IMG/VR virus record: IMGVR_UViG_3300025015_000010
Span: 32,001-96,000 of that record
DNA from: a virus
Reading direction: 5' to 3' (one strand)
DNA length: 64,000 nt
This document shows, one piece after another, positions 1,667 through 17,138 of this stretch (its first letter is position 1; every line of letters begins with the position of its first letter). The translations under genes were made by a program, and so were the position numbers. The notes beneath the pieces were generated by a model. It made no database searches. It saw only the letters and a program-made list of their open reading frames with translations, and was not told the DNA's origin.

Positions 1667-2554
1667 TTGTCTAAACCTAAGATAGTTTTAGTGGCAGATG
1701 CGAGAGGATGGGCGTGGGAAAGAAAGTCCATGGCCATTAAAAAATACTTGTCCGATTTCTTTGATTTTGAAATTAGGTATGAACCGCAGATGCGTAATAC
1801 CGATTCTACAGCAGATTTGTATTTAACCTTTGATTTTCCTGGGTCTCAAAAAGTTCCAGCGGGATGTAAATACATAACAGGCATTACAGCCCATGTTGAC
1901 TGGAATGTTTGGGGTTTAAGTGAAGTGAGAAGATGGGCCTCGGGTGCTACCTGTTTACATGCCAACTCAAAACTGTTAGTTAACGAGGTAAAAGAACGTC
2001 TAGGCGTTGAGCCTTTTTATGTTCCTAATGGTGTTGATCATACAATTTTTTATCGTGACGCACCACGTGGCAAATTTACCGCTGGATACGTGGGCAAAGA
2101 TCAAGAACAAAAAGGAACCGACATCATAAAAAGAGCGTGTGAGTTGGCCGGGGTGCCGCTGAAATTTAATGCCAGTAGGTACTATAGTCAGGACGTTCTT
2201 TCTGCTAGCCTAATGCAAAAATGGTATCAAGACATCTGGGTTCAGATAACATGCTCAATAAAAGATGGTACACCTAATCAAGCGCTAGAGTCGGCGGCAT
2301 GCGAAAATATCAATATAGGAAACGCCATAGGTAATCTGCCTGAATTTATTAACACCGGAGTTAATGGTTTTTTGATAGAGCGTAATTGTGATGCAATTGT
2401 AGAAAAGCTTATATGGTGTAAGAATAATACTGGCAGCGTTATAGAGATGGGCAGAGAGTCTTTAAAAACAGTGTTGTCTGGATGGACTTGGGAAGTTATG
2501 GCCTTAAATTACAAGAATATGTTTATGCATGCCCTGGATAAGACTGATGCGTAG
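1667..2554 (+). CDS. GT-B (GT4-like) glycosyltransferase
   Basis: VPNGVD, EQKG, DGTPNQALESAAC and NGFL motifs. Confidence 0.85.
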   Translation: MSKPKIVLVADARGWAWERKSMAIKKYLSDFFDFEIRYEPQMRNTDSTADLYLTFDFPGSQKVPAGCKYITGITAHVDWNVWGLSEVRRWASGATCLHANSKLLVNEVKERLGVEPFYVPNGVDHTIFYRDAPRGKFTAGYVGKDQEQKGTDIIKRACELAGVPLKFNASRYYSQDVLSASLMQKWYQDIWVQITCSIKDGTPNQALESAACENINIGNAIGNLPEFINTGVNGFLIERNCDAIVEKLIWCKNNTGSVIEMGRESLKTVLSGWTWEVMALNYKNMFMHALDKTDA

Positions 2555-3530
2555 CGCATTGGTCACAGGTGCAGCCGGGTTTATAGGAAGTAATCTCTGT
2601 AGACATCTTTTAAGTTTAGGCTACCGAGTTACTGGAGTAGATTCATTTCATATATTTTATCCGAGGATACTGAAAGAGTTAAATCTGAATTACTTTAGGA
2701 AGCACTTTAATTTTACGTTTTTCGAGTGTGATATTCTAAATGTACGACAGCTTGATGTTGTTTTTAGTCAAAATCGCTTCGACGTTGTCGTACATTTAGC
2801 AGCTATTGCAGGAGTTGCACCAAGTATTGTAGACCCAGCCAGCTATTATCGTATAAATGTATTGGGGACATTGAATATTTTAGAACAGTGCAAAAAATTT
2901 GGAGTTAAGAAAGTAGTGATGGCCTCGTCGTCGTCTGTGTATGGCGATACCGACAAGTTACCACTTGCAGAAAATAACTTAGCGGGCAAGGCGTTATCAC
3001 CGTACGCCGCGTCAAAAAAAGCCATGGAGGAGTTAGCAGAGTCTTTTTCAGTCGCACACAAGATATCCATAGCGTGTATTAGATATTTTACAGTATATGG
3101 TCCAGCACAAAGGCCAGACATGGCCGTATCGTTGTTTACACGTAAGGTCTCAAGGGGGGATAAAATCGTATTGTATGGCTCGGATACTGCTAGAAATTAT
3201 ACGTATATTGATGACGTCGTTTTGGGCACGATCAAAATAGTTGAAGCCGATTTTTCCTTTGATATTGTTAATATTGGGGGTTCCGAGGTTGTTAGCTTGA
3301 CTAAACTTATCCGCGAGATATCAGACGCCCTGGGTCTTGAAGCACGGTATGAGATGCAAACTATGCCGCGCCAATATGATATGAAGGTTACGGATGCCAG
3401 TATTATACACGCACACGATAAATATGGGTATTCTCCTACAATATGTTTGCACGATGGCATAAAAAAGTATGTTAGTTGGTATTCTGGTCTGCGCAATGTA
3501 TATGACCAACTAGATAACGGTCAGTTGTGA
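2547..3530 (+). CDS. NAD-dependent nucleotide-sugar epimerase/dehydratase (UDP-glucuronate 4-epimerase-like)
   Basis: TGAAGFIGS, HLAA, SSSSVYG, YAASK, RYFTVYGP and RPDM; ATG 2547 preferred as start. Confidence 0.92.
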   Translation: MRSALVTGAAGFIGSNLCRHLLSLGYRVTGVDSFHIFYPRILKELNLNYFRKHFNFTFFECDILNVRQLDVVFSQNRFDVVVHLAAIAGVAPSIVDPASYYRINVLGTLNILEQCKKFGVKKVVMASSSSVYGDTDKLPLAENNLAGKALSPYAASKKAMEELAESFSVAHKISIACIRYFTVYGPAQRPDMAVSLFTRKVSRGDKIVLYGSDTARNYTYIDDVVLGTIKIVEADFSFDIVNIGGSEVVSLTKLIREISDALGLEARYEMQTMPRQYDMKVTDASIIHAHDKYGYSPTICLHDGIKKYVSWYSGLRNVYDQLDNGQL

Positions 3531-6507: not shown

Positions 6508-6664
6508 TTACTCTCGGATCGAGCATTATGTAAAAACGGTGCTGTTTCCTGCAAAAGAGAAGTCCCGGCAGGAGGCCGCTAAGTTGCCGTTCGCAGAGAA
6601 GATGCGGCGCGTTAGGCATATGCAAAGTAGGATAGTTTCGATCAAGAATGCAAAGAAGGTTTAA
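6500..6664 (+). CDS. small partner of the NTase (putative antitoxin), 54 aa (not in ORF track)
   Basis: MRDYSRIEHY...AKEKSRQEAAKLPFAEKMRR; overlaps both neighbours. Confidence 0.6.
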   Translation: MRDYSRIEHYVKTVLFPAKEKSRQEAAKLPFAEKMRRVRHMQSRIVSIKNAKKV

Positions 6665-7320
6665 TGCCACAGGAATCCTCATGGAAACTCAAAGATCGCA
6701 AAAATATCAAGCCCGATGAAGTGTCGAGGCTATTTACAGCAGCAAAGAATTCCAGTATTCGTGATTATATTATGTTGGCTTTGACAGCCAATATGGGGCT
6801 CAGGGTCGGTGAGCTAGTACAATTGAAGTTTGAGGATTTTTTGCCCCAACAAGGTATCGCTTTAGTCAAGACGTTAAAGCAAAAAGAAGCCGTAGTGGAC
6901 GAACTCAATGTAGATAAGGGTGTTTTCGAATTAGTAGACGAGTGGAAGAAAGCCTCAGGTCGTTCACGAGGTTGGTTGTTTCCTGGGAAGAATCCTGAGC
7001 AGCCTATAACAACTCGTGGAGCCCAAAAGATATTCGAAAGAGCAGCGCGAGCAGCAGGAATTGAGACAGACGCCCCGCTAGCCTTGGTTGATTCAAATAA
7101 TGCCAGAGGTAAAGGCATACATTCATTGAGGCATTATCGCGGGACTGTATTGGCTACATCAGGGGCAGACATGCCAACAGTGGCCAGACAACTTCGGCAC
7201 AAGTCACTCCAGGCTACGCAAGCATATTTTGACACTTTAAATGAGTCCAGTGCAGTCCGTAAAGTTGGTACACTGAAGATAGCAAACTCCATTAAACGAA
7301 AATTTAATCTGGAGGATTAA
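6664..7320 (+). CDS. tyrosine recombinase, catalytic domain only
   Basis: GLRVGEL, HSLRH and LRHKS...TQAY. Confidence 0.9.
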   Translation: MPQESSWKLKDRKNIKPDEVSRLFTAAKNSSIRDYIMLALTANMGLRVGELVQLKFEDFLPQQGIALVKTLKQKEAVVDELNVDKGVFELVDEWKKASGRSRGWLFPGKNPEQPITTRGAQKIFERAARAAGIETDAPLALVDSNNARGKGIHSLRHYRGTVLATSGADMPTVARQLRHKSLQATQAYFDTLNESSAVRKVGTLKIANSIKRKFNLED

Positions 7321-7767
7321 ATGCTACCATATACGCAGGTTTCAAATGTCACGCCTATTCCAGCCCAGCGGGTGATCGTTGTTTCCAAGATAGGGGAACA
7401 GTGGATTGTTCGAATGGCTGGGTTGGTGGCTCCTACATTTCTAACGGCTGCACCTATGCCAGTGTTGAAGATTGAGCGCGAGCCATGGCAAAGTACTGAC
7501 GACGATGCAGAACGTCATCAGGCCCAGCCATCGATTGCAGTAACCATAGGCAGCGCTAACGAAATCGATGAAATTCTGAACAGTTCTCCAGAGTCATTTT
7601 TTATAGTGGAAAATGGTCATAATGATGCTTACGTATTTACAAGAATTTCACCGTTGGCACCTAATGTACATGTAGGCGGGTATCCAAAAGTATTTTCCAG
7701 CATGAGAGAATTGGCTAAGTATATCGTGGATATTTTGAGTGCAAATACGACTTTAACTGTAAATTAA
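7321..7767 (+). CDS. hypothetical protein
   Basis: ORF with GGAGG RBS. Confidence 0.7.
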   Translation: MLPYTQVSNVTPIPAQRVIVVSKIGEQWIVRMAGLVAPTFLTAAPMPVLKIEREPWQSTDDDAERHQAQPSIAVTIGSANEIDEILNSSPESFFIVENGHNDAYVFTRISPLAPNVHVGGYPKVFSSMRELAKYIVDILSANTTLTVN

Positions 7768-7848
7768 TCTGTGCCATTAAGGCACAAAAAGTCCACTGTT
7801 GAGGTGGCAGAAGTCCTGCATGAGCAGGCAGATTAAGTGAGGAACATC

Positions 7849-8673
7849 ATGGCAGATTATAGTTTGGCAGTGTTGGTACACGGCAACGCAGTAAAGACGT
7901 ACGAACACAACAGTAAGACGTACGTAGAGGGCCGCAAAGGGTCTGAGTTTTCTATTCAGCTTCGCAACAATACAAGTTCCCAAGTTGAAGCCGTAGTTTC
8001 TGTAGATGGCAAGTCCGTGAACAACGGTGAAGCAGCCGCGTATGCGACTCGTGGCTACATTTTAGATGCTCACAGCACGCTCACAATTCCAGGCTGGCGG
8101 TTAAATAACCAGGAAGTTGCAAAATTTGGTTTTAACAGCGTTGGTGGATCATATGCGGCAAAGACAGGTGTGCCCGAAAATATTGGTGTTATTTCAGCCG
8201 CTTTCTTCAAAGAGAAGGTCAGTGTTTCGTTGGGTGGATCGGCAATTACAGTCTATTCTACGCAGCCGTGGGTTTACCAGAATCTGCAATGGCCAGAGTA
8301 TCCTAATAAGTTTTGGCTTAGCTCAGGCGGCACAACTGCCGACAGTTACAAAGGTTTGCGAAGCTGTACTACGTCTGCGAGCCTGAATTCTGGGCCTGCT
8401 TGTGCGGGTCACGAAGGCGCCCTTTGTGCGGATCAAACCAGCCAGAATATTGGTATTAGCTTCGGTCAAAAGGCAGATCATCAGGTGCATGAGGTATCTT
8501 TCGTTCGCGCCTCAGTGTCTCCTGATTCAGTAATCTCAGTTTATTATAATGACCGTCAAGGGCTTGAAACTATTGGTATTAACTTCAAGCCTGTGTCCAA
8601 GATAGCCGCTCCAAACCCATTTCCTGGTAATCCCGGTCAGGCATGCAAACCGCCCGACGGTTGGGTAGGCTAA
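7849..8673 (+). CDS. hypothetical protein
   Basis: Long ORF with GAGG RBS; VSVDG...GY...IPGWR...NIGVI...PFPG. Confidence 0.75.
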   Translation: MADYSLAVLVHGNAVKTYEHNSKTYVEGRKGSEFSIQLRNNTSSQVEAVVSVDGKSVNNGEAAAYATRGYILDAHSTLTIPGWRLNNQEVAKFGFNSVGGSYAAKTGVPENIGVISAAFFKEKVSVSLGGSAITVYSTQPWVYQNLQWPEYPNKFWLSSGGTTADSYKGLRSCTTSASLNSGPACAGHEGALCADQTSQNIGISFGQKADHQVHEVSFVRASVSPDSVISVYYNDRQGLETIGINFKPVSKIAAPNPFPGNPGQACKPPDGWVG

Positions 8674-8691
8674 AATTCTTCGAGAAAGTAG

Positions 8692-8720
8692 TTGACATTA
8701 GCTCGCACAAGTGGTATAGT
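8692..8720 (+). promoter_or_regulatory. strong sigma70 promoter with extended -10, upstream of the RNA/Ro60 operon
   Basis: TTGACA (8692-8697), 17 bp, TATAGT (8715-8720) preceded by TG. Confidence 0.85.
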
Positions 8721-8769
8721 ACTAGCATAAGAAACAAATGACTTTGGAAACGGAGTCAAATTATGAAAA

Positions 8770-9090
8770 ATAGCGCGTAGATCCATGGGCCATAGCGAGA
8801 ATCCTAACAAAAAGTGCTACCAAGGCACCTCTATCCTACCTGTAAGGAATCGGACTGAGCATGTATGGCGGTATTGGGCAAAGCTCGCAAAGGTCCAAGC
8901 TAGGGATTGGACAATAAGATCCTTGGAGCCGGGTGAAAACCTCACTTCGTGTGACAGCAGGAAACCTGCTTTCAATCCTATTAGCGATTCGTTACCAGTA
9001 TACTGTTCGGGTAACGTCACTCATTCATGATTGTCATAAATGGGTATGAGAAATTGAACGGTTGCCATGTTAAAGTCCCGGAAACGGAAC
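8770..9090 (+). ncRNA. orphan IS607 TnpB omega-RNA/right-end copy with a different guide
   Basis: 8770-9061 is colinear with 16692-16983 up to the GG end; followed by TTGCCATGTTAAA and a GAAA hairpin; no tnpA, tnpB body or left end. Confidence 0.75.
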
Positions 9091-9091
9091 G

Positions 9092-9365
9092 AAATTAACC
9101 TCTTGGTGCAGTACAGCGAAGTGAAAGCACAGGAATAATTCTAGTGGATATAGCCGTAATCTATAGTACGAGTTGGCCATAGTAACTATAGTTGTGAGCA
9201 AGGCTGCTAGATACGTTGGACGACAGACGGTGACCTATGCCGGAAATGTACTTTGCGCCTTAATTGGCGGCGTACGAGCAAGGCTGATTAATCGTCAGCC
9301 TACTTAGCCTTCTAAAGATGCCGTAGTTCGTGTCGGTGAAAGCCCGGCCACCGAGAGTTTAATTT
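9092..9365 (+). ncRNA. ~275-nt structured RNA (raiA-motif-like local features)
   Basis: Terminal stem aaattaacctcttggtg / caccgagagtttaattt; several internal hairpins; no ORF. Confidence 0.7.
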
Positions 9366-9371
9366 TAGAAT

Positions 9372-9440
9372 ACTGAACGAGACGCTTTTGCAGGGTTATC
9401 CTATGGAGATAAAATCCTGCATACTAATTTGCCGTTCAGT
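9372..9440 (+). ncRNA. Y RNA-like 1 (minimal, variant Ro stem)
   Basis: actgaacg/cgttcagt stem; ACG...GGTTATC and TTTGCC. Confidence 0.55.
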
Positions 9441-9443
9441 TTT

Positions 9444-9556
9444 GTTTGTGTGGTACGGATGTTTGGGTTACCTACTGAGAAGTGATCCTCTTTAACTGGA
9501 TCACAAATAACAAGTAACACCCTAGCCCAAGCAAACACTTGACCGCTTCTACAAAC
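9444..9556 (+). ncRNA. Y RNA-like 2
   Basis: gtgGTACG...GGTTAC and CA...TTGACcgc Ro-type helix. Confidence 0.75.
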
Positions 9557-9643
9557 GAATATCGTGGTACGAATGCTTTTGGTTACCTTCAAATGGAAGT
9601 GGCTTCGGTCACAGAGCCAAAACAACTACTTGACCACATTATT
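9557..9643 (+). ncRNA. Y RNA-like 3
   Basis: gtgGTACGAATG...GGTTAC and CA...TTGACcac. Confidence 0.75.
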
Positions 9644-9663
9644 TTAACCAGAGGAGATTATCG

Positions 9664-11313
9664 ATGTCGAGTTATTTGAAGACTGCTGCGAATCGTAATC
9701 AGAGTACTACACTCCAGACCGAACAGGCACGCGAAGACCAGGTAGTCAACAACGCTGGTGGTTATGTATTTAGCCAGGATGCTTGGTTGAAGGTGAGGTC
9801 GTTTCTTATTCTTGGTGCCGAAGGTGGTACTTACTATGTCGGCGAGAAAGAATTGACTAAGCAGAACACCACTAATTTGCAGGCTTGTCTCAAGGAAGAT
9901 GGGCCACGCTTGGTGCAGTTGATACGCGAGGTATCAGTTAACGGTCTGGCGTCCAAGCAGTCAGCTACCTTGTTTTCCTTGGCGCTAGCCGCTGCGGATG
10001 GTAATGCTGCTACTCGTACGGAAGTTTTGAAGGTACGCGACGAAATTCTGCGTACTGGTTCACATCTGGAAGAATTTGCCAGTTATTTGCTTGGGCTCGG
10101 CTCAAAGTCTTCTAGGTTTACTCGCAGGCTGCTCGGTGGTTGGTACAATAAGCCTATTGACGATCTTGCTTATCAGGCTGTCAAGTACCAGTCCCGTGAA
10201 GGCGTGAGTCACCGCGATATTTTGCGCGTCGCCCATCCCAGGCCAGCGAGTGCATCTCACGATCACTTGTTTAAGTGGGTTGTAGATGGTTCAGCAACAA
10301 CAAAGCCGGTTCCAGAAAAGTTTGCTAACAGAATCAATGTAAAAGCTTTGAAGTCTGTCTTGCAGTTACCAGCGATTGTACAAGCTTTCGAGCGGGCTAA
10401 GGCAGCAACTACTGATACCGAGATTGTGCAGCTTATTACAGAGCATAATCTTCCTCGCGAGTGTATTCCCACACAGTGGCTGAATTCGATTCCAGTGTGG
10501 GAAGCCTTATTGGCAAAGATGCCATTGACCGCGCTGATTCGTAATTTAGGGAAGATGTCTTCGGTCGGACTACTTAGGCCACTTAATGAGGCTTCTAAGC
10601 TGATTGTAGAGAAGCTTAATGACCAAGAGTACTTGACCAAGTCTAGGATTCATCCTATCGGTGTATTGTCGGCTCTGAAGACTTACGAAAGTGGTCACGG
10701 CGTTCGTGGTAAGCTATCTTGGGAACCAGTCAAGCAGGTAATTGATGCGTTGGATAGTGCGTTCTATAAGACGTTTAAGAATGTAGAACCCACTGGCAAG
10801 AACTTCCTACTAGCCTTAGACGTATCAGGTTCGATGGGTGAGGGAGATGTGGGTGGCGTACCTGGATTGAGTCCACGCGAAGCTTCTGCGGCTATGGCTC
10901 TAGTGACTGCTGCCACTGAACCAAACTACGAAATTTTTGGATTTTCAAATAGCTTTGTAAGACTTAATATTACACCCAGGATGCGCTTGGATCAGGCTAC
11001 GAAGGTCATTAGTAATCTGCCATTTGATGGCACAGATTGCTCATTACCAATTCAGTATGCAGATAGGCAGGGCTTAAACGTGGACACGTTTATTGTCTAT
11101 ACTGACAGCGAGACTTACACAGGCAGAATTCATCCGTTCCAGGCTCTCAAGAAGTACCGCGCTAAGACGGGTAAGTTTTCTAAATTGATCGTTGTTGGTA
11201 TGGTTTCCAATGGTTTTACGATTGCAGATCCAAATGACCGAGGCTCACTAGACGTAGTTGGTTTTGACTCATCTGTACCCGAGGTTATTAGGTCGTTTAC
11301 TCTAGCTCAGTAA
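9664..11313 (+). CDS. rsr: Ro60/Rsr RNA-binding protein (TROVE + vWA)
   Basis: NNAGGYVF, FLILG.EGGTYY, KYQSREG.SHRD.LR.AHP, LIRNLGKM, IHP, MIDAS DVSGSM and GFD. Confidence 0.96.
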   Translation: MSSYLKTAANRNQSTTLQTEQAREDQVVNNAGGYVFSQDAWLKVRSFLILGAEGGTYYVGEKELTKQNTTNLQACLKEDGPRLVQLIREVSVNGLASKQSATLFSLALAAADGNAATRTEVLKVRDEILRTGSHLEEFASYLLGLGSKSSRFTRRLLGGWYNKPIDDLAYQAVKYQSREGVSHRDILRVAHPRPASASHDHLFKWVVDGSATTKPVPEKFANRINVKALKSVLQLPAIVQAFERAKAATTDTEIVQLITEHNLPRECIPTQWLNSIPVWEALLAKMPLTALIRNLGKMSSVGLLRPLNEASKLIVEKLNDQEYLTKSRIHPIGVLSALKTYESGHGVRGKLSWEPVKQVIDALDSAFYKTFKNVEPTGKNFLLALDVSGSMGEGDVGGVPGLSPREASAAMALVTAATEPNYEIFGFSNSFVRLNITPRMRLDQATKVISNLPFDGTDCSLPIQYADRQGLNVDTFIVYTDSETYTGRIHPFQALKKYRAKTGKFSKLIVVGMVSNGFTIADPNDRGSLDVVGFDSSVPEVIRSFTLAQ

Positions 11314-11320
11314 AAGCATT

Positions 11321-11450
11321 AGTCGGTACGTCAGTACTGGGTTATCTTCTTAGGGAAGTGAGGCACAGGTTCGAATCCTGTCGGGTGACGCGAGTCACAC
11401 GTAGCTTAGTGGACAGAGCGCATTAGCTCCAGTACAGTATTTGACCGGCT
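11321..11450 (+). ncRNA. yrlA: YrlA-type Y RNA (permuted tRNA-like domain)
   Basis: Ro stem agtcgGTACG / TTGACcggct; T arm acaggTTCGAATcctgt precedes a GCGA-capped acceptor stem and the D arm tagcttagtggacagagc. Confidence 0.9.
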
Positions 11451-11456
11451 TTATTT

Positions 11457-11589
11457 TAGGCTGTACGTAGTTTTGGATTATCATCCAATCAGAAGGTTGT
11501 AGTTGTTACTACCATGGCATTCTATGCTGTGTAGCTCAAAAATAGAGCATCTGACAAAAAAAATATCTAAAGCAAAATTTGACAGCCTA
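11457..11589 (+). ncRNA. second YrlA-type Y RNA with degenerate T loop
   Basis: taggctGTACG / TTGACagccta; closed acceptor catggca/tgctgtg; D arm gctc/gagc; T-tract follows. Confidence 0.8.
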
Positions 11590-11609
11590 TTTTTTAGGGA
11601 AACAAAGTA

Positions 11610-11834
11610 ATGCTAATAATCTGTCAGCCAGATTTCGAAGGTAATATCAGGTCAGTGTACGTTGAGATTTGTGATCGACCTATATTCGATACGGACAAGG
11701 CATCCAAGTTAGCTCGTGTAGATTATACAAAGGATGGTATTGTAGTAGGCATTGAGCTAGTTGGTGGAATATCAAGAACAGCAATTGAGCGCGCTTTTAA
11801 GGTGGCTATAGAACAGTCATCAGTTAAGCAGTAA
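11610..11834 (+). CDS. DUF2283-like small protein
   Basis: VYVEI...VDYTKDGIVVGIEL. Confidence 0.6.
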   Translation: MLIICQPDFEGNIRSVYVEICDRPIFDTDKASKLARVDYTKDGIVVGIELVGGISRTAIERAFKVAIEQSSVKQ

Positions 11835-14926: not shown

Positions 14927-15499
14927 ATGAAGCTGAATGATTGGGCAAAGCTGCAAGGGATCACTTATAAAACAGCACATCGCTGGTTTCAAGCAGGTAT
15001 TATTCCTGATCCTGTAAGACAACTTCCAACAGGAACGATTCTGGTCGATGTCGAAAACATTACGAAAGTAGAAAATAGGACCGCGCTTTACGCCCGAGTT
15101 TCATCTTCTGGCCAGAAGGTTGATTTAGACCGACAAACATCAAGACTTATGAGTTTTGCACTCGAAAACAAACTGACCATTGTTGATTCTGTACAGGAAA
15201 TCGGCAGTGGTCTTAACGGACATCGCAAAAAGTTACTGAAGTTGCTGGCCGATAAAAGCATAAATACCATTGTTATAGAGCATCGAGAACGTCTTGCACG
15301 ATTTGGATTTGATTACATCGAAGCAGCCTTGGCCGCGACTGGGCGTAAGCTTGTAGTGATAGACAGCACTGAGATGAAAGACGATTTAGTTCAGGACATG
15401 ATTGATGTTTTGACATCATTTTGTGCAAGACTTTACGGACGCAGGTCCGCAAAGAACAAGGCAAAGAAAGCCATAGAAAGCATTCATGAGCAAGGATAG
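14927..15499 (+). CDS. tnpA: IS607 serine recombinase
   Basis: N-terminal HTH, YARVSS, EIGSGLN, ERLARFG and RLYGRRS. Confidence 0.96.
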   Translation: MKLNDWAKLQGITYKTAHRWFQAGIIPDPVRQLPTGTILVDVENITKVENRTALYARVSSSGQKVDLDRQTSRLMSFALENKLTIVDSVQEIGSGLNGHRKKLLKLLADKSINTIVIEHRERLARFGFDYIEAALAATGRKLVVIDSTEMKDDLVQDMIDVLTSFCARLYGRRSAKNKAKKAIESIHEQG

Positions 15500-16952
15500 C
15501 ATTTCCACATTTCAGACTAGGATCGATTCATACCCAGCTTTACAGGCTTATGCAGACCGTCATAATCTGGTCGAGCACAAGTTGTACGCCCAGATATTAG
15601 CCGGTAAAAAGCCGAACAAACTTAAGCAAGCGTTCCTAGTTAAGTATGGCATTACGGCGCGACAATTCAATGCTATTGAGCGAAATCTACGCGGTAAAAT
15701 TAGCAGTGTTCAAGAACTTCGCAAGGACCATAAAAAGGAAACAAACTACAGGATCAAGGATTGTGAGCGCAAGATAGAATTTGTCAAGGACAATCTCAAA
15801 CAGCACAATTTGAAGCGCAGATTGCATGGCCTAAAAACCAGGTTGGCCAGGCTCGAACAGATGCCAAAATCCTTGTGTTTCGGGTCCAGGAAGTTGTTCA
15901 ACTCACAATTCGGTCCAGAAATAGATCATGATGTTTGGTCCAGTGATTGGAAACAGTCCCGTTCGAGTCAGTTCTATGTTCTCGGTTCTCACGAAGAAAC
16001 ATCAGGGTGCCAAGGATGTGTCGCTACTGTGCAGGACGACGGCAGCTTAACGCTACGTTTGCGCCTTCCAGATGCACTGATGGCCATCCATGGTAAGTAT
16101 ATTGAAATCCCCGGCGTGTACTTTAACCACGGCCATGAGCATGTACTACAGGCCCTGGCTTTGGGTAATACACCAACCAACTACAGGTTTAAGCTAGATG
16201 GCATTGGCTGGAGAGTCTTCGTTTCAGTTCACGTCATCGAAGCCAAAATTGTTACCAGGGACAGCCTGGGCAGAGTCGGTTTTGACCTTAATGAAGATCA
16301 CATCGCAGTTACCGAGACCGACCGTTTTGGAAATATAATCAACACGTTCAATGAGCCTGTAATAACCACAGACTTGACCACGCACCAGACATTGGCAGTC
16401 TTAGGCAATGCAGTTAAGAATATCGTAGCTTACGCCAAGAACGTTCAAAAGCCTATTGTTATTGAGAAGTTAGATTTCCAAAAGAAACGTGCTGAACTTC
16501 GTGGCCGAGGCCAAACTGCGAAGAATCTTAGTTCATTCGCGTACAGTAAATTCAGATCCATAGTCGTATCGCGTTGTCAGCGAGAAGGCATTAAGGTTTA
16601 CAACGTGAATCCGGCCTACACATCGATTATCGGTAGAAATAAGTTCGCGCTTCGGTACGGACTCACAGTACACAATGCAGCGGCGCTAACTATAGCACGT
16701 AGATCCATGGGCCTAAGTGAGAACCCAAATAAAAAGTGCTACCAAGGCACCTCTTTCCTACCTGTAAGGAATCGGACAGAGCATGTGTGGCGGTACTGGG
16801 CAAAACTCGCAAAGGCTCAAGCTAGGGATTGGGCCACAAGATCCTCGAAACCTGACGCAAATCACGTTTCGTGTGATAGCAGGAAACCTGCTCTCGGTCC
16901 TATTAGCGATTCGTTACCAGTATACTGTTCGGGTAACGTCACTCATTCGTGA
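15486..16952 (+). CDS. tnpB: TnpB-related RNA-guided protein without Zn finger
   Basis: RuvC-I GFDLN, RuvC-II VIEKL, VNPAYTS and RuvC-III region VHNAAALTIARR. Confidence 0.9.
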   Translation: MSKDSISTFQTRIDSYPALQAYADRHNLVEHKLYAQILAGKKPNKLKQAFLVKYGITARQFNAIERNLRGKISSVQELRKDHKKETNYRIKDCERKIEFVKDNLKQHNLKRRLHGLKTRLARLEQMPKSLCFGSRKLFNSQFGPEIDHDVWSSDWKQSRSSQFYVLGSHEETSGCQGCVATVQDDGSLTLRLRLPDALMAIHGKYIEIPGVYFNHGHEHVLQALALGNTPTNYRFKLDGIGWRVFVSVHVIEAKIVTRDSLGRVGFDLNEDHIAVTETDRFGNIINTFNEPVITTDLTTHQTLAVLGNAVKNIVAYAKNVQKPIVIEKLDFQKKRAELRGRGQTAKNLSSFAYSKFRSIVVSRCQREGIKVYNVNPAYTSIIGRNKFALRYGLTVHNAAALTIARRSMGLSENPNKKCYQGTSFLPVRNRTEHVWRYWAKLAKAQARDWATRSSKPDANHVSCDSRKPALGPISDSLPVYCSGNVTHS

Positions 16953-17138
16953 TTGTCATAAATGGGTATGAGAAATTGAACGGTGTTCAAAATGTTCGGA
17001 CGATTTCGATGAGGCTATCGATATGATCAATAATGGTACGGCCCCAACCCATGCTGATTTTCCAAATGCAGACGCCGATGAGATTGAGTACAATAATGAT
17101 CCATTAGGACTTGGTTCGTTGAGTAAAGGAACATCTTG

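What the first reader, a model, noticed from the sequence alone, without database searches (positions are those of the whole stretch)
9092..9365. Unassigned ~275-nt structured RNA in the Ro60 operon
Seen: 17-nt terminal helix, internal hairpins (ggctga/tcagcc; cgcc/ggcg), two TGAAAG T-loop-like motifs (gtgaaagcac; gtcggTGAAAGCccggc) and a CGTAA...TGAGCA internal loop closed by agcc/ggct. From memory, the raiA-motif RNA has similar elements in the same order, but overall similarity is loose. Inference: a divergent raiA-like or new large ncRNA co-expressed with Ro60.
Basis: partly seen in the sequence, partly recalled or inferred. Interest (0 to 1): 0.7.

Follow-up and report, generated by a model that had tools for sequence, protein, structure and literature searches.

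The report
Orphan helix-closed RNA module beside phage Ro60
A 274-base gene-free stretch in a large phage's Ro60/Y-RNA operon is a real, discrete unit closed by a long stem, but it matches no known RNA family (not raiA) and is absent from the only related phage available, so whether it is a working RNA remains unproven.

Summary
The 17-position terminal helix (16 pairs, one C.U mismatch) is real. Helices of this quality are common genome-wide, but it is significant because it brackets the unexplained stretch between two hard landmarks: 2 of 5000 shuffles and 2 of 2808 genome chunks do as well. Fold energy does not discriminate (z -1.6; the true omega-RNA next door scores -1.4).

The raiA reading is not supported. 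No Rfam 15 family matches at E <= 10 on either strand, while in a same-size search the true tRNA-like Y RNA downstream of Ro60 is detected by the YrlA, Y_RNA and tRNA models.

The one reachable relative (L029, Ro60 90% identical, flanks 77-78% identical) keeps the promoter, leader hairpin, Y array and Ro60. It carries about 800 nt of unrelated, strongly folded, ORF-free sequence in place of the solo omega-RNA plus this element. The same promoter-leader unit occurs once more in the phage and drives other helix-closed, ORF-free modules.

Best reading: a lineage-specific RNA cassette co-transcribed with the Y RNAs. It is an orphan, covariation could not be tested, and function is unproven. The scan noted this same stretch once before from another window.

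The parts
8692..8720 (+). Sigma-70-type promoter TTGACA-17-TATAGT (TG-extended); the only strong promoter upstream of the element
   Evidence: 11 of 12 matches. Conserved in L029 at 2250-2278 and in a second copy in the same phage.
8739..8758 (+). Leader hairpin hp1 (GAAA tetraloop, 7-8 bp) followed by an AAAUUAUGAAAAA tail
   Evidence: A profile of the promoter-leader unit finds exactly two copies in the contig, E 1e-22 and 7.5e-19.
8768..9062 (+). Neighbour, not part of the element: solo TnpB omega-RNA scaffold, 89% identical to 16692-16984 at the 3' end of the resident tnpB. Similarity stops at 9062, so a guide would be about 9063-9082.
9075..9090 (+). Hairpin hp2 (GUCCCG-GAAA-CGGAAC) with tail GAAAUUA; possible second copy of the leader hairpin, immediately before the element
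   Evidence: Direct repeat D2, 8746-8763 vs 9080-9097, 83%. One of three sites genome-wide with this hairpin plus tail. Not recovered by the blind covariance model R1 at E <= 10, so only suggestive.
9092..9365 (+). The element: a 274-nt ORF-free module
9091..9108 (+). 5' strand of the closing helix
   Evidence: Pair probability >= 0.96. Bracket test p about 5e-4.
9349..9366 (+). 3' strand of the closing helix
   Evidence: (inverted repeat I2).
9121..9130 (+). GUG-AAAG-CAC mini-hairpin (first 'TGAAAG' motif)
   Evidence: P 0.39.
9161..9191 (+). Hairpin CUAUAGU / ACUAUAG (7 bp); competes with the MFE pairing
   Evidence: P 0.40.
9196..9206 (+). First copy of the exact 11-mer GAGCAAGGCUG
   Evidence: Both exact copies in the 64-kb window lie in the element.
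9276..9286 (+). Second copy of GAGCAAGGCUG; its 3' part forms the 5' strand of the 9281-9301 hairpin
9257..9268 (+). Hairpin GCC-UUAAUU-GGC
   Evidence: P 0.89.
9281..9301 (+). Hairpin AGGCUGAU / GUCAGCCU (8 bp, one G.U)
   Evidence: P 0.91.
9332..9348 (+). T-arm-like hairpin GUCGG-UGAAAGC-CCGGC (5 bp, 7-nt loop, one G.U), with no linker before the 3' strand of the closing helix
   Evidence: P 0.72. Not recognised by the tRNA model or by ARAGORN.
9369..9645 (+). Context: three Y-RNA-like cassettes; similarity to L029 resumes at 9371
9664..11313 (+). Context: Ro60 (TROVE plus vWA_Ro60 domains)

Best explanation
The element is a lineage-specific, non-coding RNA cassette transcribed as part of one long precursor: promoter 8692, leader hairpin, solo omega-RNA, second hairpin, this module, Y RNAs, Ro60. 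Shown: it is ORF-free, it is a discrete unit bracketed by a 17-position helix, it sits in a slot whose content differs between sister phages, and the phage uses the same promoter-leader unit to drive other helix-closed ORF-free modules. Inferred: the 5' and 3' ends pair into a roughly 18-position stem, stacked on a 5-bp T-arm-like hairpin. That stem serves as a double-strand-specific processing site (RNase III type, as in rRNA and phage T7 precursors) and/or an end-protecting clamp, releasing a stable RNA of about 240-275 nt. Its variable interior would be an accessory payload, for example a partner or decoy for an RNA-binding or RNA-cleaving factor, rather than a core part of the Ro60-Y RNA machine.
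For: No ORF in any frame. Same strand as the operon, behind an 11/12 promoter, with no terminator-like site until after Ro60. The terminal helix coincides with the independently set limits of the unexplained stretch: 2/5000 shuffles, 2/2808 genome chunks. Each of the three best-determined helices holds one G.U pair (U9104.G9353, U9288.G9294, U9333.G9347; read), which would be A.C mismatches on the other strand. L029 keeps the promoter, leader, Y array and Ro60 at 77-78% identity but carries unrelated ORF-free sequence in the slot that folds at z -5.35. A second promoter-leader copy at about genome position 113,291 on the minus strand drives three modules closed by 13-17 bp helices, z -8.79, with no significant ORF. 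The window has no tool-called promoter between the element and the Y array, whereas L029 does, so in this phage read-through of the element is probably how the Y RNAs and Ro60 are expressed. Chen et al. 2014 (PMC4201824) show that RNAs upstream of rsr are processed from a single precursor and that further small RNAs near rsr fall outside the Y-RNA definition.
Against: No homolog was found anywhere, so there is no covariation and no evidence of selection. The only relative lacks the element, so it is dispensable for the operon. MFE z is only -1.6 and the 150-nt core is poorly determined. An inverted repeat is equally a DNA-level feature. There are no expression data. The hp2 'punctuation' hairpin failed the blind covariance-model test in this phage.
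Confidence: 0.42

Rival explanations
1. Transcribed passenger with no function of its own: leftover or illegitimately acquired sequence in a recombination-prone slot, the same slot that took in an IS607-type element now reduced to its omega-RNA. The terminal inverted repeat would be a by-product of how the piece was acquired.
For: Absent from the sister phage and replaced by unrelated sequence. Directly adjacent to an IS remnant. Single copy and orphan in every collection searched. Fold energy no better than expected and an ill-defined core.
Against: Phage genomes are compact, yet about 300 nt of ORF-free sequence is kept inside a highly expressed operon. The bracket helix is unlikely by chance. 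The replacement sequence in L029 and the modules at locus 2 are very strongly structured, which argues that this slot holds RNAs rather than junk.
Confidence: 0.3
2. An atypical Ro60 partner: an oversized Y-like or tRNA-scaffolded RNA whose closing stem plus T-arm-like hairpin imitates the acceptor/T minihelix. It would be bound by Ro60 or by tRNA-processing enzymes.
For: It sits directly upstream of the Y array. A 5-bp/7-nt-loop hairpin abuts the 3' strand of the closing helix, as in tRNA. A short collinear resemblance to the tRNA-like cassette Y4 (AGCGAAGUGAAAGCACAGG against AGGGAAGUGAGGCACAGG). Earlier notes of this scan report oversized tRNA-shaped RNAs beside Ro60 in other phages (unchecked leads).
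Against: The Y4 similarity is not significant (67/1000 shuffles and 31/605 genome chunks score as well). The closing helix lacks this phage's Ro-binding handle (GGU-A-CG ... UUGACC). YrlA, Y_RNA and tRNA models and ARAGORN find nothing in the element, yet the models detect Y4 in a same-size search. L029 has no counterpart.
Confidence: 0.13
3. A DNA-level element: a MITE-like insertion or recombination cassette with 17-bp terminal inverted repeats. TTAA lies at the inner edge of both AT-rich ends (9095-9098 and 9359-9362).
For: Inverted repeat 15/17 at the DNA level, lying exactly at the edges of a segment that differs between sister phages. A tyrosine recombinase gene (6664-7320) and several IS/TnpB elements are nearby.
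Against: Single copy in 169 kb and no copy in any collection. No transposase. TTAA is its own reverse complement, so no target-site duplication can be demonstrated. L029 shows no empty site, only different sequence. The helix-closed modules at locus 2 have unrelated end sequences. The G.U pairs favour RNA.
Confidence: 0.1
4. A divergent member of raiA or another catalogued large RNA family (ROOL, GOLLD, tmRNA, RNase P, group I).
Against: No Rfam 15 match at E <= 10 on either strand in three searches of decreasing size. raiA is defined by P1, P3a/b, P4-P6 and two pseudoknots (PMC12968392), and none of these could be mapped onto the element.
Confidence: 0.02

Closest known systems
Bacterial and phage Y RNAs (YrlA/YrlB, Yrn1; Rfam RF02553, RF02565) encoded next to rsr/Ro60 and cut from a common precursor (Chen et al. 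2014, PMC4201824)
   Same: Location directly upstream of Ro60 on the same strand. 5' and 3' ends paired in a terminal stem around a variable interior. A T-arm-like hairpin. Probably released from a multi-RNA precursor.
   Different: Two to three times longer. It lacks this phage's Ro-binding handle. Not detected by the YrlA, Y_RNA or tRNA models that detect cassette Y4. Not conserved in the sister phage, whereas the Y RNAs are.
raiA motif RNA (Rfam RF03072; PMC10861870, PMC12968392)
   Same: Size class of about 200-270 nt, with a long closing P1-like stem.
   Different: Fails the covariance model. No identifiable P3a/b, PK1 or PK2. raiA is described in the phyla Bacillota and Actinomycetota, not in a phage Ro60 operon.
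Processing stalks of rRNA operons and phage T7 early transcripts (RNase III sites formed by long-range pairing of sequences flanking the mature RNA)
   Same: A roughly 18-position helix formed by the two ends of a unit inside a polycistronic non-coding transcript.
   Different: Shorter than the classic two-turn substrate unless the stacked 5-bp hairpin is counted. Cleavage is untested.
Stand-alone TnpB omega-RNA (the adjacent 8768-9062 segment)
   Same: Same transcript, and likewise variable cargo of the slot.
   Different: No sequence similarity to any omega-RNA or tnpB 3' region in the contig. The similarity to the resident omega-RNA stops 30 nt before the element.
Closing-stem plus heptad-repeat RNAs that accompany DIP1984/DUF6847 genes, as noted elsewhere in this scan (unpublished AI notes)
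   Same: Large phages, an RNA-repair/Ro60-type setting, and a long closing stem.
   Different: No 7-nt periodicity and no DUF6847 gene nearby; the only signal is 15.5 bits, below the cut-off, about 60 kb away.

Membership tests
raiA motif RNA (RF03072) | Match to the family covariance model (nested stems P1, P3-P6) | tested here: not met
   No hit at the gathering score, nor at E <= 10 on 1101 nt or 321 nt.
raiA motif RNA (RF03072) | Pseudoknots PK1 (P3b loop with the P5-P6 linker) and PK2, and the asymmetric loop bending P3a/P3b (PMC12968392) | tested here: inconclusive
   No P3/P5/P6 equivalents could be assigned because the core fold is ill-determined. No alignment is available to test pseudoknots.
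YrlA / Y RNA (RF02553, RF00019) | Ro60-binding bulged helix near the termini (here GGU-A-CG ... UUGACC) | tested here: not met
   The closing helix reads AAAUUAACCUCUUGGUG / CACCGAGAGUUUAAUUU, with no handle motif.
YrlA / Y RNA (RF02553, RF00019) | Covariance-model match | tested here: not met
   None at E <= 10. Control: Y4 gives YrlA 23.1 bits (E 0.009) and Y_RNA 19.8 bits.
tRNA-like / tmRNA | Cloverleaf or tRNA-like domain recognised by ARAGORN or the tRNA covariance model | tested here: not met
   ARAGORN finds none in 8600-9700. No tRNA hit at E <= 10. Only a generic 5-bp/7-nt-loop hairpin next to the closing stem.
ROOL, GOLLD, RNase P, group I intron, 6S, HEARO and the other Rfam 15 families | Covariance-model match | tested here: not met
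TnpB omega-RNA | Derived from the 3' end of a tnpB/IS right end; similarity to an omega-RNA in the genome | tested here: not met
   Similarity to the resident copy ends at 9062. The element has no other match in the contig, which holds five TnpB-like genes.
Retron msr-msd ncRNA | Flanking inverted repeats plus an adjacent reverse transcriptase | tested here: not met
   Inverted repeats are present, but there is no RVT_1 match anywhere in the contig.
MITE / TIR mobile element | Multiple copies sharing terminal inverted repeats, and a target-site duplication | tested here: not met
   Single copy. Pattern scans give only chance seeds. TTAA at both ends is palindromic, so a duplication cannot be told from the repeat itself.
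DIP1984/DUF6847-partner heptad-repeat RNA (this scan's notes) | Row of evenly spaced 7-nt units inside a closing stem, directly behind a DUF6847 gene | tested here: not met
   Lag-7 autocorrelation 0.243 against 0.251 in shuffles. No DUF6847 hit over the cut-off.

The most novel reading that the evidence does not exclude
This phage lineage runs operons of interchangeable non-coding RNA cassettes: a shared strong promoter and GNRA leader hairpin, then modules each closed by a long stem. The 274-nt element would be one such cassette, a previously undescribed large structured RNA released by cleavage at its closing stem. It would work as an exchangeable accessory, for example a decoy or partner for an RNA-targeting host defence or for the Ro60/Y-RNA machinery, which would explain why sister phages carry different RNAs in the same slot.
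Probability: 0.25. Interest if true: 0.65.

Novelty: new variant of a known kind. Interest (0 to 1): 0.35.

Why it matters
If the element is a working RNA, phage Ro60 operons would carry exchangeable large structured RNAs as well as Y RNAs, and the variable slot would resemble the accessory (often anti-defence) islands known for phage proteins, but at the RNA level. That would widen the known RNA repertoire linked to Ro60 and give a tractable case: one promoter, two sister phages, different cargo. If it is only a passenger, the result is still useful. It removes a supposed raiA relative from consideration and shows that a long terminal helix and T-loop-like motifs read by eye do not establish an RNA family.

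Tried and rejected
1. Rfam at three scales: nothing.

2. BLAST of the region against INPHARED phages and PLSDB plasmids: nothing.

3. Exact-pattern scans: GTCGGTGAAAGCCCGGC, the paired GAGCAAGGCTG motif and GAAGTGAAAGCACAGGAA in IMG/VR, and a 25-mer in GTDB genomes. They gave only chance seeds or unrelated tandem repeats.

4. Ro60-anchored loci: two in IMG/VR at 44% identity and four in JGI metagenomes. Only L029 is close, and it lacks the element.

5. The upstream 278-aa protein as an anchor: no relatives in IMG/VR, and no Pfam or PHROG family.

6. Tracing the origin through the IS: an invariant omega-RNA 20-mer has no match in IMG/VR or GTDB genomes.

The contigs of the near-identical Ro60 proteins (P0001 on 12 contigs, P0002) and of P0003 could therefore not be fetched. 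This is the main gap.

9. Coding remnant: six-frame tblastn found only self hits.

10. Similarity to L029's cargo, to locus-2 modules and to Y cassettes: none above shuffles. The tempting Y4 resemblance has p about 0.05-0.07 before multiple-test correction.

11. Internal duplication: only the exact 11-mer repeat, nothing longer.

12. Retron: no reverse transcriptase.

13. Heptad-repeat/DUF6847 RNA: negative.

14. A resemblance I thought I saw to RNase P conserved regions (AAAGUCC, GAGCAAGGC, ACAGA) was dropped because no RNase P model scores.

15. One search used helix coordinates off by one; it was replaced.

Full report
**Setting.** The window is bases 32001-96000 of a 168.7-kb IMG/VR phage contig, estimated 77% complete. 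The 549-aa ORF at 9664-11313 is a genuine Ro60 with TROVE and vWA_Ro60 domains. Between the end of the preceding gene (8673) and Ro60 lies about 1 kb with no credible ORF. A near-consensus promoter, TTGACA-17-TATAGT with an upstream TG, sits at 8692-8720. No terminator-like site follows on the + strand until after Ro60.

**The observation.**
- The ends 9091/9092-9108 and 9349-9365/9366 pair in 16 of 17 positions: 15 Watson-Crick pairs, one G.U and one C.U mismatch. Ensemble probability is at least 0.96.
- Other well-determined helices are 9281-9301 (P 0.91), 9257-9268 (P 0.89) and the T-arm-like GUCGG-UGAAAGC-CCGGC at 9332-9348 (P 0.72). The last abuts the 3' strand of the closing helix with no linker.
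- The roughly 150-nt core (9109-9256) is poorly determined.
Its inner 7-bp hairpin and the GUG/CAC mini-hairpin each have P about 0.4 (one search is discarded because of an off-by-one error).
- The exact 11-mer GAGCAAGGCUG occurs twice, 80 nt apart, and both exact copies in the window lie here.

**Is it more than chance?** Fold energy does not decide. The element's z is -1.4 to -1.6, the true omega-RNA next door scores -1.4, the Y array -3.5, and coding controls -0.65 and +1.25. A 16/17 helix at 100-500 nt spacing is also common genome-wide and equally common in shuffled genome.

The helix becomes significant once the limits of the unexplained stretch are fixed independently. The left limit is where similarity to the resident omega-RNA stops (9062). 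The right limit is where similarity to the sister phage resumes (9371). A 16/17 helix with its 3' end within 8 nt of the right limit and its 5' end in the first 40 nt occurs in 2 of 5000 dinucleotide shuffles and 2 of 2808 natural genome chunks. With the tighter left limit of 9091 the figures are 3 of 20000 and 1 of 4212. The element is therefore a discrete, bracketed unit. All six frames are closed, with a longest open stretch of 54 aa, and six-frame tblastn finds no coding remnant.

**Known families.**
- Rfam 15 gives nothing at the gathering score, nothing relevant at E <= 10 on 8600-9700, and only a 13-bit noise hit on 9055-9375. That excludes raiA, ROOL, GOLLD, tmRNA, RNase P, group I, 6S, YrlA, Y_RNA and tRNA at the sensitivity of those models.
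- As a positive control, the same-size search on 11300-11620 detects cassette Y4 with YrlA (23.1 bits, E 0.009), Y_RNA (19.8 bits) and the tRNA T-arm.
- ARAGORN finds no tRNA or tmRNA in 8600-9700.
- raiA is defined by P1, P3a/b, P4-P6, PK1 and PK2 (PMC12968392), and none of these could be mapped onto the element.
- The contig has no reverse transcriptase, so it is not a retron.
- A lead from this scan's notes, closing-stem plus heptad-repeat RNAs behind DUF6847 genes, was tested and is negative.

**Neighbours.** Window 8770-9062 is 89% identical to 16692-16984, the 3' end of the resident tnpB (15486-16952) and its omega-RNA. The similarity stops at 9062. A guide would span about 9063-9082 and ends roughly 10 nt before the element, so the element is not part of the omega-RNA. 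Directly downstream, from 9369, come three Y-like cassettes.

L029 is collinear with the window at 77-78% identity over 6662-8763 and 9371-11601. Across the slot the similarity disappears. The window carries the solo omega-RNA plus the element there (8764-9370). L029 carries 796 nt of other ORF-free sequence (2322-3117) that shows no similarity above shuffles. That sequence folds very strongly (z -5.35), matches no Rfam family, and ends with its own promoter TTGACT-17-TAGACT just before the Y array. The window has no tool-called promoter there, only a weak GTGAAA-16-TTTAAT that I read by eye at 9336-9363.

Because the non-coding flanks are still 77-78% identical, the difference reflects replacement and not drift. 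More distant Ro60 loci (44-48% identity) hold Y-RNA and tRNA arrays but nothing like the element. No homolog turned up in phages, plasmids, IMG/VR, GTDB genomes or other windows of this scan.

**A repeated design in the phage.** The promoter and its leader (AGCAUAAGARACAAAYGACU..GGAAACG..GUC followed by AAAYUAU.AAAAA) occur exactly twice in the contig, with nhmmer E values of 1e-22 and 7.5e-19. The second copy, at about genome position 113,291 on the minus strand, drives three modules that are each closed by a 13-17 bp helix. That region has no significant ORF, no Rfam match, and a fold z of -8.79.

A similar GAAA hairpin with an AAAUUA tail (hp2, 9075-9097) immediately precedes the element. 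It is one of only three sites in the genome that fit the hairpin-plus-tail descriptor, and the other two are the true leaders. A covariance model trained only on the three promoter-proximal leaders recovers L029's internal hairpin weakly (19.1 bits, E about 0.08). It does not recover the window's hp2, so hp2 as 'punctuation' is suggestive only.

**Interpretation.** The most economical reading is that the slot between the leader and the Y array holds exchangeable, ORF-free RNA cargo, and that the element is this phage's cargo. Three things favour an RNA-level unit: strand-specific G.U pairs in the three best helices, the operon context, and the parallel with the locus-2 modules. I infer, but have not shown, that the closing stem acts as a processing or end-protecting helix and that the interior is an accessory payload.

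The main rival is that the element is a transcribed passenger without a function of its own. It is single-copy, absent from the sister phage, next to an IS remnant, and thermodynamically unremarkable. A Y-like or tRNA-like Ro60 partner is possible but fails every test available here. That includes the resemblance to Y4, which 67 of 1000 shuffles equal or beat. A MITE-like DNA element is unlikely, given the single copy, the lack of a demonstrable target duplication, and the absence of an empty site in L029.

**Verdict.**
- Observation: partly confirmed. It is a real, discrete, helix-bracketed non-coding unit, but its internal structure is not established.
- raiA-like: rejected.
- New Ro60-operon RNA: possible but unproven, and not a conserved component of the operon.
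- Interest is moderate to low until related contigs or expression data are examined.
- The scan noted this same stretch once before from another window.

Noticed in passing
Outside the window: G000:C1 about 113291-112940, minus strand (L041 989-640, minus): A second non-coding RNA operon with the same TTGACA-17-TATAGT promoter and leader hairpin. It is followed by three modules closed by 13-17 bp perfect helices, folds at z -8.79, and has no Rfam match and no significant ORF.
   Followed up: partly
L029:2322-3117: The sister phage carries 796 nt of unrelated ORF-free sequence in the same slot. It folds at z -5.35, has no Rfam or phage-database match, contains an internal leader-like hairpin (2701-2720) and ends with its own promoter (3083-3111). 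It is probably two further uncatalogued RNAs.
   Followed up: partly
window 9075-9097 compared with 8739-8763: A GAAA-tetraloop hairpin with an AAAUUA tail recurs just before the element (15 of 18 identical to the leader). It could be a cassette 'punctuation' or processing signal, but a blind covariance model did not recover it.
   Followed up: yes
window 9336-9363: A weak promoter-like GTGAAA-16-TTTAAT lies inside the 3' end of the element and would start transcription at about 9370, exactly where the conserved Y array begins. The scanning tool did not call it, because the second hexamer has T at position 2.
   Followed up: no
G000:C1 at 48542, 68680, 83518, 89365 and 168564 (window 16542, 36680, 51518 and 57365, plus one beyond the window): The contig holds five TnpB-like (Cas12f1-like_TNB) genes or fragments, an unusually high load for a phage.
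   Followed up: no
window 11339-11450: Cassette Y4, downstream of Ro60, is recognised below threshold as YrlA (23.1 bits, E 0.009) and has a canonical GGUUCGAAUCC T-arm. It is a true tRNA-like Y RNA that the Rfam gathering thresholds miss.
   Followed up: partly
L029:8858-8897: The leader-hairpin covariance model gives a 21-bit hit (E about 0.02) inside L029's tnpB ORF. This is probably chance and was not examined.
   Followed up: no
window 6664-7320: A short (218-aa) phage-integrase-family tyrosine recombinase lies 1.4 kb upstream of the variable RNA slot and is conserved in L029 (245-901). Any link to cargo exchange is pure speculation.
   Followed up: no
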